Positions 41,938 through 42,210 of a stretch of DNA of 64,000 bases are shown here, piece after piece. The stretch's first letter is position 1. Each line of letters starts with the position of its first letter. The stretch lies in assembly GCF_024298765.1 (NCBI RefSeq), contig NZ_CP101210.1, one strand, 5' to 3'. Position numbers and translations under genes: made by a program. The DNA comes from Escherichia coli (GTDB lineage Bacteria; Pseudomonadota; Gammaproteobacteria; Enterobacterales; Enterobacteriaceae). Below the pieces are notes generated by a model. That model was not told the DNA's origin. It worked only from the letters and a program-made list of their open reading frames with translations, and ran no database searches.

Positions 41938-42210
41938 ATGTTCCCTTAATTATCTGGTCAGTTAACAATAACAATTATCTGGCTATAACTGATAATGCAG
42001 ATAACTTAGCTAATCAGCTTATCAACCTCAGCAAGAGGTAAATTTGCCATCTCTGCAACGTCTTCCCGAGACATCCCTTTACTCAGAAAACGCAGGGCGA
42101 ATTCCTGTCTTACTTCCTGTCTAACCTCTTGTATTACCTCCTGTCTTACCTCCTGCCTTTCCTCCTGTCTTCCCCTCTCTTCAAACCACTGCGCCAGCGT
42201 CATCATAGAC
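41734..42210. repeat. Tandem imperfect direct duplication of the rpnC 3' end
   Basis: The 41740-41940 block and the 42010-42210 block share long near-identical stretches (for example ttgccatctctgcaacgtcttcccgagacat and ctcttcaaaccactgcgcca). Confidence 0.7.

What the first reader, a model, noticed from the sequence alone, without database searches (positions are those of the whole stretch)
42103..42178. Short tandem repeat tract inside rpnC encoding a QEVRQE-type reiterated linker
The DNA is a run of near-identical CCTCCTGTCTTAC-like units that translate to RQEERQEVRQEVIQEVRQEVRQE. This ORF is 306 aa, against 300 aa for K-12 yadD as I recall, so the tract may be expanded here. Such tracts are prone to slipped-strand gain or loss and would change the spacer between the nuclease core and the C-terminal domain.
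Basis: partly seen in the sequence, partly recalled or inferred. Interest (0 to 1): 0.35.

Follow-up and report, generated by a model that had tools for sequence, protein, structure and literature searches.

The report
Variable repeat in RpnC antitoxin helix
The 12-base repeat is real and its copy number differs among E. coli strains, but it is the four-amino-acid repeat already described in 2023 in the helix shared by the RpnC nuclease toxin and its gene-within-a-gene antitoxin, where copy number decides which antitoxin fits which toxin.

Summary
A period-12 tandem repeat (5.8 copies, 42103..42171) lies in codons 251-275 of a 306-aa rpnC/yadD gene (42006..42926, minus strand) between panC and panD. 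It is far beyond chance (0 of 5000 codon shuffles).

Copy number varies. In 24 intact alleles read directly the tract is always 9+4n aa, with n = 0 to 8 (window n=4, K-12 n=2). A 60-genome sample contains all nine values.

The 'linker' reading is not supported. A confident AlphaFold2 model puts the tract inside one continuous helix (residues 244-282). The flexible segment is residues 234-243, at a conserved internal Shine-Dalgarno and ATG-ATG start.

This matches Zhong et al. 2023 (PNAS). Rpn genes encode a toxin (RpnL) and an internally translated antitoxin (RpnS). The repeats lie in the first RpnS helix, and for RpnC only equal repeat numbers allow neutralisation.

The window allele is not an expanded K-12 tract. 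It has RQEV-type units where K-12 has KGIE-type units (+8 aa), and its C-terminal tail is 2 aa shorter.

A second free-standing copy, rpnCSs (41734..41937), is also present and is also described in that paper.

Verdict: real, ordinary, already known.

The parts
42006..42926 (-). rpnC (yadD), full-length product RpnC-L, 306 aa: YhgA-like PD-(D/E)XK nuclease family, the toxin of the Rpn L/S pair
   Evidence: ORF. PF04754 E 1.8e-85. TIGR01784 E 1.2e-80. Annotated rpnC between panC and panD in 5424 of 5426 E. coli genomes. 100% identical to E. coli strain 104, NZ_CP029164.1.
42102..42176 (-). The repeat tract: codons 251-275, six 12-nt units plus one codon (RGRQ EERQ EVRQ EVIQ EVRQ EVRQ E). This is n=4 on the scale tract length = 9+4n aa.
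   Evidence: Inside helix 244-282 of the AlphaFold2 model.
42006..42206 (-). rpnC-S, the gene within the gene: 66-aa C-terminal domain starting at M241/M242 (ATG ATG at 42201..42206). By homology with K-12 RpnC-S it is the antitoxin.
   Evidence: Start context conserved in all 21 alleles examined. Coordinates. The tract starts at residue 11 of this product. Translation of RpnC-S was shown in K-12 by ribosome profiling and tagging (PMC10400941). The family profile matches PDB 7TH0 RpnA-S at E 3.7e-12.
42213..42219 (-). Shine-Dalgarno-like GGGAGGG, 6 nt upstream of the internal ATG ATG
   Evidence: Present in all 21 alleles examined.
42198..42227 (-). Codons 234-243 (RDRETGGQSMM region): the only non-helical, lower-confidence stretch between the nuclease domain and the C-terminal domain, so this is the actual linker
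   Evidence: DSSP and pLDDT of model m0463f1108833 (blocks 231-240 = 75, 241-250 = 73).
41734..41937 (-). rpnC-Ss: free-standing second copy of the RpnC C-terminal domain, 67 aa, with its own AAGGGA ribosome-binding-like site and a shorter, different tract (KGFQ KGYK EGLR KVR, 15 aa)
   Evidence: ORF. Matches positions 213-273 of TIGR01784, E 9.8e-9. Intact in all 20 other Ss-bearing loci fetched. Described as rpnCSs in PMC10400941 Fig. 2I.
41742..41905 (.). Downstream arm of the direct duplication that created rpnC-Ss. It pairs with 42008..42201: 41742-41832 vs 42008-42098 at 90%, and 41838-41905 vs 42134-42201 at 74%.

Best explanation
The tract is the hypervariable dodecamer (four-amino-acid) repeat of an Rpn toxin-antitoxin gene. 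rpnC makes two proteins. One is the full-length nuclease RpnC-L. The other is a 66-aa C-terminal protein, RpnC-S, translated from an internal Shine-Dalgarno and ATG-ATG at codons 241/242. The repeat sits in the long first helix of that C-terminal domain and is therefore present in both proteins. Each 12-nt unit lengthens the helix by four residues (about one turn). Because toxin and antitoxin pair through this helix, only partners with the same number of units fit, so copy number acts as a specificity code for the toxin-antitoxin pair. The overlapping reading frames force both partners to change together. Copy number changes by gain or loss of single 12-nt units (slippage-like) and by recombination that swaps the whole C-terminal module. 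Shown here: the anatomy, the helix prediction, the conserved internal start, the copy-number polymorphism and the mosaicism. Shown in the literature for K-12 RpnC: translation of RpnC-S, SOS induction by RpnC-L, and loss of neutralisation when only one partner gets an extra KGIE unit. Inferred: that the same rule holds for this RQEV-type allele, and that phage pressure drives the diversity.
For: Repeat real and non-random. Gene identity and synteny. Internal GGGAGGG-N6-ATGATG conserved in 21 of 21 alleles examined. The tract begins at residue 11 after the internal Met, inside the published 8-20 range. The tract is always 9+4n aa, n=0..8, in the 24 intact alleles read. A 60-genome even-rank sample gives n=0:1, 1:3, 2:35, 3:1, 4:7, 5:4, 6:6, 7:1, 8:1, plus one IS2-disrupted gene. 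AlphaFold2 with 74 homologs: pLDDT 91.5, one helix 244-282 covering the tract, then helices 287-294 and 298-305; the domain alone gives H4-42, H47-53, H58-65. A profile of the C-terminal domain family matches 7TH0 RpnA-S in a single stretch at E 3.7e-12. The same Met-then-4-aa-units layout appears in relatives of 30-50% identity, and 41 of 107 full-length representatives have at least 3 similar consecutive units. Published mechanism: PMC10400941 and commentary PMC10400984. RpnC toxicity and SOS induction: PMC5350276. One-unit changes between near-identical alleles and module mosaicism.
Against: The functional test of the copy-number rule was done on the K-12 allele with a KGIE unit, not on an RQEV-type allele. 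Anti-phage activity was shown for plasmid RpnP2, not for RpnC, and PADLOC 2.0 has no model that matches. Foldseek did not recover 7TH0 with either model (best E 0.09 and 0.49). A simple sigma-70 scan found no minus-strand internal promoter. AlphaFold2 tends to draw charged E/R/Q-rich repeats as long helices, so the helix is a prediction, not a measurement.
Confidence: 0.85

Rival explanations
1. A flexible, functionally neutral linker between nuclease core and C-terminal domain, whose length drifts by slipped-strand mispairing.
For: The units are near-identical 12-mers, and one-unit differences occur between closely related alleles. Length changes are tolerated over a 32-aa range.
Against: The tract is predicted as a rigid continuous helix at high confidence, and the real non-helical segment lies upstream at residues 234-243. 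The tract lies downstream of the internal start, so it is part of the small protein too. Adding one unit to one partner abolishes neutralisation in K-12 RpnC. The same repeat position is kept in relatives of only 30-50% identity, which neutral drift would not maintain.
Confidence: 0.07
2. The tract's main role is at the DNA level: a polypurine/polypyrimidine repeat that serves as a recombination or cleavage hotspot (possibly for RpnC-L itself) to diversify the locus, with the protein effect secondary.
For: The + strand of the tract is 84% pyrimidine. The C-terminal module is mosaic relative to the N-terminal domain. The authors themselves speculate that RpnL may help to change repeat number.
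Against: The purine bias follows from E/R/K/G/Q codons. There is no evidence of cleavage there. The protein-level effect of copy number has been shown experimentally. K-12 lineage genomes in the sample all carry the same length, so the tract is not hypermutable on laboratory time scales.
Confidence: 0.05
3. A phase-variation (contingency) switch that turns rpnC on and off.
For: It is a tandem repeat in a coding region of a defence-type gene.
Against: The period is 12 and every observed length difference is a multiple of 12 nt, so the frame is never broken.
Confidence: 0.01

Closest known systems
Rpn L/S toxin-antitoxin with hypervariable four-amino-acid repeats (Zhong et al., PNAS 2023, PMC10400941; RpnA-S structure PDB 7TH0)
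   Same: Same gene (rpnC), same position of the repeat (first helix of the internally translated C-terminal domain, starting 11 residues after the Met), same 12-nt/4-aa period, same between-strain copy-number variation, and the same downstream rpnCSs copy.
   Different: Only allelic detail differs. The window carries RQEV-type units (n=4), whereas the KGIE-type units of K-12 were the ones manipulated experimentally. Q takes the place of one of the 'charged or glycine' positions.
EcoR124I / EcoR124II HsdS TAEL repeats (type I restriction specificity subunit; cited in PMC10400941)
   Same: A 12-nt, four-amino-acid unit in a helical spacer of a defence protein; a change of one unit changes specificity.
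   Different: There the helix length sets the gap in the DNA recognition sequence (N6 vs N7). Here it sets protein-protein pairing between toxin and antitoxin. The proteins are not homologous.
Simple-sequence contingency loci of Neisseria/Haemophilus (own knowledge)
   Same: Tandem repeats in coding sequence that change by slippage and generate population diversity.
   Different: Those shift the reading frame or promoter spacing to switch genes on and off. This tract is always in frame and changes specificity, not expression.

Membership tests
Rpn / YhgA-like nuclease family (PF04754, TIGR01784) | Transposase_31 (YhgA-like) domain over the N-terminal ~200 residues | tested here: met
   PF04754 E 1.8e-85, residues 7-207, profile 1-201 of 203. 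TIGR01784 E 1.2e-80, above its cut-off.
Rpn / YhgA-like nuclease family (PF04754, TIGR01784) | Conserved acidic residues of the PD-(D/E)XK core | tested here: inconclusive
   D62, E81 and H82 are conserved in at least 90% of 74 homologs and are present in the window protein. I did not map them onto the published catalytic residues, and nuclease activity cannot be tested here.
rpnC (yadD) orthologue | Location between panC and panD, opposite strand | tested here: met
   panC-like 40787..41638 (+), panD-like 43200..43580 (+). Same arrangement and annotation in K-12 and in 24 other E. coli loci.
RpnL/RpnS gene-within-gene toxin-antitoxin | Internal ribosome-binding site and start codon before the C-terminal domain | tested here: met
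   GGGAGGG, 6 nt, ATG ATG at codons 241/242, conserved in 21 of 21 alleles examined. An internal Met is conserved in distant homologs.
RpnL/RpnS gene-within-gene toxin-antitoxin | Four-amino-acid repeats beginning 8-20 residues after the internal Met, within the first helix | tested here: met
   The tract starts at residue 11. It lies inside helix 4-42 of the RpnC-S model and 244-282 of the full-length model.
RpnL/RpnS gene-within-gene toxin-antitoxin | Repeat number varies among strains of one species | tested here: met
   n=0..8 in the 24 intact alleles read, and all nine values appear in a 60-genome sample.
RpnL/RpnS gene-within-gene toxin-antitoxin | C-terminal domain homologous to the RpnA-S three-helix bundle (PDB 7TH0) | tested here: met
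   Profile of 49 C-terminal domains (first row = window) matches 7th0_A at E 3.7e-12, one stretch, chain residues 1-46 of 49. Three helices are predicted. Single-sequence searches and Foldseek did not recover it.
RpnL/RpnS gene-within-gene toxin-antitoxin | The small protein is made and neutralises the long protein only when repeat numbers match | not testable with these tools
   Shown for K-12 RpnC in PMC10400941 Figs 2 and 4D. Not tested for this allele.
Anti-phage defence system | Protection against phage infection | not testable with these tools
   Shown only for plasmid RpnP2. No PADLOC 2.0 model matches RpnC or RpnC-Ss.
DUF4351 (PF14261), the Pfam family under which free-standing RpnS genes are annotated in some species | Pfam match of the free-standing small protein | tested here: not met
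   The 67-aa rpnCSs product gives only sub-threshold SAM_2 and HTH_3 hits at E<=0.01 and no PF14261. It does match the C-terminal part of TIGR01784.
Phase-variable contingency locus | Repeat-number change shifts the reading frame or promoter spacing | tested here: not met
   All length differences are multiples of 12 nt.

The most novel reading that the evidence does not exclude
The free-standing rpnC-Ss copy, whose repeat tract never has the same length as the resident rpnC tract (0 of 14 distinct pairs), may not be a spare antitoxin. It may be a stored alternative specificity module. Recombination between the 90%-identical direct repeats could exchange or fuse it with the 3' end of rpnC, giving cassette-type switching of toxin-antitoxin specificity. 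Alternatively it could serve as a non-cognate decoy or sensor.
Probability: 0.15. Interest if true: 0.5.

Novelty: already known. Interest (0 to 1): 0.15.

Why it matters
The feature matters biologically. It is a compact way to diversify toxin-antitoxin specificity, and the overlapping genes force both partners to co-evolve. That insight was published in 2023, with RpnC itself as the test case. What this window adds is modest. It is one more allele (RQEV-type, n=4, with rpnCSs). It gives a rough census in which K-12's n=2 is the majority state (about 59% of a 60-genome sample) and all states from 0 to 8 occur. It also gives evidence that both single-unit changes and whole-module recombination shape the locus.

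Tried and rejected
(1) PDB sequence searches with the full protein and with RpnC-S alone found no Rpn structure. Only the family profile reached 7TH0.

(2) Foldseek against the PDB gave nothing significant, either with the full model (best E 0.09) or with the domain model (best E 0.49; helix-turn-helix and resolvase-like hits; 7TH0 not in the top 50). I treat the fold comparison as inconclusive, not negative.

(3) The sigma-70 and terminator consensus scan of 41600..43250 found no minus-strand promoter for rpnC-S or rpnC-Ss. The paper reports internal transcription start sites from dRNA-seq in K-12, so the simple scan is probably too crude.

(4) PADLOC gave no hit, and Pfam DUF4351 gave no hit for rpnC-Ss.

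(5) I considered counting alleles with allele-specific BLAST identity bands. I rejected this because repeats make gapped or split alignments ambiguous. I used record-span differences on an even-rank sample instead and verified them on fetched loci.

(6) A phase-variation reading is rejected because the period is in frame.

(7) I looked for evidence that the window's rpnC 3' module derives directly from an rpnC-Ss of another strain. The C-terminal tails do not match, so there is no support for that specific event.

Full report
OBSERVATION. The window holds a period-12 tandem repeat at 42103..42171 (5.8 copies, 82% matches, no indels, consensus TCCTGTCTTACC on the + strand). It lies on the coding (minus) strand of a 306-aa ORF, 42006..42926. 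Read in frame it gives RGRQ EERQ EVRQ EVIQ EVRQ EVRQ E, codons 251-275, window 42102..42176. The best 60-position stretch has 49 matches at lag 12. In 5000 codon shuffles of the gene the mean was 25.1 and the maximum 36. No other stretch of the 64-kb window reaches 50 of 60 at any period from 3 to 39.

IDENTITY. The ORF is a YhgA-like/Rpn protein (PF04754 E 1.8e-85; TIGR01784 E 1.2e-80). It sits between panC (40787..41638) and panD (43200..43580) on the opposite strand, which is the rpnC/yadD position. The 1591-nt locus is 100% identical to E. coli strain 104 (chicken, NZ_CP029164.1), and 5424 of 5426 complete E. coli genomes have a match.

COPY NUMBER. I fetched 25 loci and read the tract between the conserved WFEE and F[AV][LQ]R anchors; 24 hold an intact rpnC. 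The tract is always 9+4n residues, with n = 0, 1, 2, 3, 4, 5, 6, 7 or 8, giving proteins of 290 to 322 aa. The window has n=4 and K-12 has n=2.

A sample of 60 genomes taken at even steps down the BLAST ranking gives n=0:1, 1:3, 2:35, 3:1, 4:7, 5:4, 6:6, 7:1 and 8:1, plus one rpnC cut by IS2. Copy numbers were decoded from record spans and checked on fetched loci. This is not a random sample, and rows that were not fetched are inferred from spans.

NOT AN EXPANDED K-12 TRACT. The tract has two unit types. KGIE-like units occupy the 5' part and RQEV-like units the 3' part. K-12 reads KGIE KGIQ QGRQ EVSQ E. The window has no KGIE-type unit and an amplified RQEV type. The 6-aa difference between 306 and 300 aa is +8 aa in the tract and -2 aa in the tail (DKLIS* vs DKVINLI*).

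ANATOMY. Ten codons upstream of the tract lies ATG ATG (M241, M242; 42201..42206), preceded at 6 nt by GGGAGGG (42213..42219). This context is kept in all 21 alleles examined (coordinates). An internal Met at this position is conserved in relatives of only 30-50% identity, where it is likewise followed by a variable number of 4-aa units such as EGRQ, KGIE and QGMQ. Of 107 full-length representatives, 41 have at least three similar consecutive units.

An AlphaFold2 model built on 74 homologs (pLDDT 91.5) shows one continuous helix, residues 244-282, containing the whole tract at pLDDT about 88-98. Two short helices follow (287-294, 298-305). The only non-helical, lower-confidence stretch nearby is residues 234-243. 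The 66-aa domain modelled alone gives the same three helices. A profile of 49 such domains matches the solved RpnA-S chain 7TH0_A at E 3.7e-12 in one stretch. Single-sequence PDB searches and Foldseek did not recover it. The tract is therefore part of the first helix of the C-terminal domain, not a linker in front of it.

WHAT IS KNOWN. Zhong et al. 2023 (PMC10400941) showed that rpn genes encode a toxic nuclease (RpnL) and an internally translated C-terminal antitoxin (RpnS). They showed that the first RpnS helix forms the dimer interface and carries four-amino-acid repeats, beginning 8-20 residues after the Met, whose number varies widely within species. [quoted passage not shown] Adding one KGIE unit to only one partner abolished neutralisation of SOS induction, and adding it to both restored neutralisation. 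They also describe a second copy, rpnCSs, downstream of rpnC in some strains. They note that the mechanism of dodecamer expansion is open. The commentary PMC10400984 summarises the same points. Kingston et al. 2017 (PMC5350276) showed that RpnC overexpression is toxic, induces SOS and raises RecA-independent recombination. I found no later paper on the subject in the library.

MECHANISM. The best-supported reading is that the tract is a length code in a helix shared by toxin and antitoxin. Each unit adds four residues, roughly one helical turn, and pairing requires equal lengths. The nested genes guarantee that both partners change together. This was shown for K-12 RpnC and is inferred for the RQEV-type allele here.

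For how the number changes, my data show two processes. First, single-unit steps occur between near-identical alleles. L013/L015 and L016 differ at 3 of 750 nt upstream and 0 of 85 nt downstream, yet by exactly one GAGGTAAGACAG unit. Nissle 1917 (n=6) and clone D i14 / ATCC 25922 (n=7) share the same rpnCSs protein. L003 differs from L002 by a 12-nt deletion that is out of register with the codon units. Second, whole modules are exchanged. The window's first 750 nt differ by only 4 nt from L008/L019, which carry a KGIE-type n=6 tract, but by 38 nt from L016, whose tract protein sequence is identical to the window's. The many K-12-like genomes in the sample, including K-12 derivatives, all show the same span, so the tract is not hypermutable on laboratory time scales.

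THE SECOND COPY. Window 41734..41937 (minus strand) encodes a 67-aa protein that matches the C-terminal 60 positions of TIGR01784. It arose by a direct duplication (41742-41832 vs 42008-42098 at 90%; 41838-41905 vs 42134-42201 at 74%). AAGGGA lies 4-5 nt before its ATG. About a third of sampled genomes (20 of 59) have a second matching place or piece. The ORF is intact in all 21 Ss-bearing loci, the window included, even where RefSeq calls it partial. Its tract is 13-25 aa long, and in 14 distinct rpnC/rpnCSs pairs it never has the same length as the resident rpnC tract. The overlap of the two length ranges is small, so this is suggestive only.

L009 and L011 lack rpnCSs. Their rpnC ends ...AEIDKMIN*, like the rpnCSs of L003/L014, and their stop codon lies 82 nt from panC, as rpnCSs stops do (74 nt in K-12). 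This fits the fusion events mentioned by Zhong et al.

VERDICT. The 'linker' reading and the 'expanded relative to K-12' reading need correction. The feature, its variability, its structural place and its function were already published, with this very gene as the example. Novelty: already known. Interest: low.

Noticed in passing
window 41734..41937 (-), with L002-L008, L012-L020, L022-L025: The free-standing rpnC-Ss copy has a tract length that never equals that of the resident rpnC (0 of 14 distinct pairs). By the published matching rule it would then be non-cognate to the toxin next to it. RefSeq annotates it inconsistently: hypothetical protein, 'transposase' pseudogene, or RpnC/YadD family protein.
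   Followed up: partly
L009 (NZ_CP094339.1) and L011 (NZ_CP090611.1), whole loci: These rpnC alleles lack rpnC-Ss but end with the rpnC-Ss-type tail (...AEIDKMIN*), and their stop codon is 82 nt from panC, as rpnC-Ss stops are. This looks like a deletion that fused rpnC with rpnC-Ss.
   Followed up: partly
L021 (NZ_CP029239.1, strain BH212) 990..2211: rpnC is interrupted by an IS2 element; only the 3' 237 nt remain next to panC.
   Followed up: no
window 63261..64000 and 63151..63220 (-): A 303-nt tandem repeat (2.4 copies, running off the window end) and a 33-nt repeat. The translation shows reiterated lipoyl domains ([15 protein letters not shown]...) separated by Ala/Pro-rich linkers. From my own knowledge this is the aceF (pyruvate dehydrogenase E2) pattern.
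   Followed up: partly
window 59542..59588 (+): A 24/15-nt repeat encoding an Asp/His-rich run (DDDDHDHHHHDDDDYHHHD) inside a long ORF with Gln-rich C-terminal repeats. Probably yacH (from memory, not tested).
   Followed up: no
window 24784..24831 (-): An 18-nt repeat encoding an acidic [17 protein letters not shown] run in the N-terminal tail of a protein whose sequence looks like PBP1b (mrcB) (from memory, not tested).
   Followed up: no
window 8929..8974 (-): Rfam match to the HtrA 5' UTR thermometer (RF02700, 77 bits, gathering score 52), full length.
   Followed up: no
window 42102..42176: The + strand of the tract is 84% pyrimidine (the coding strand is purine-rich). This follows from E/R/K/G/Q codons, but it makes the tract a polypurine/polypyrimidine stretch.
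   Followed up: no
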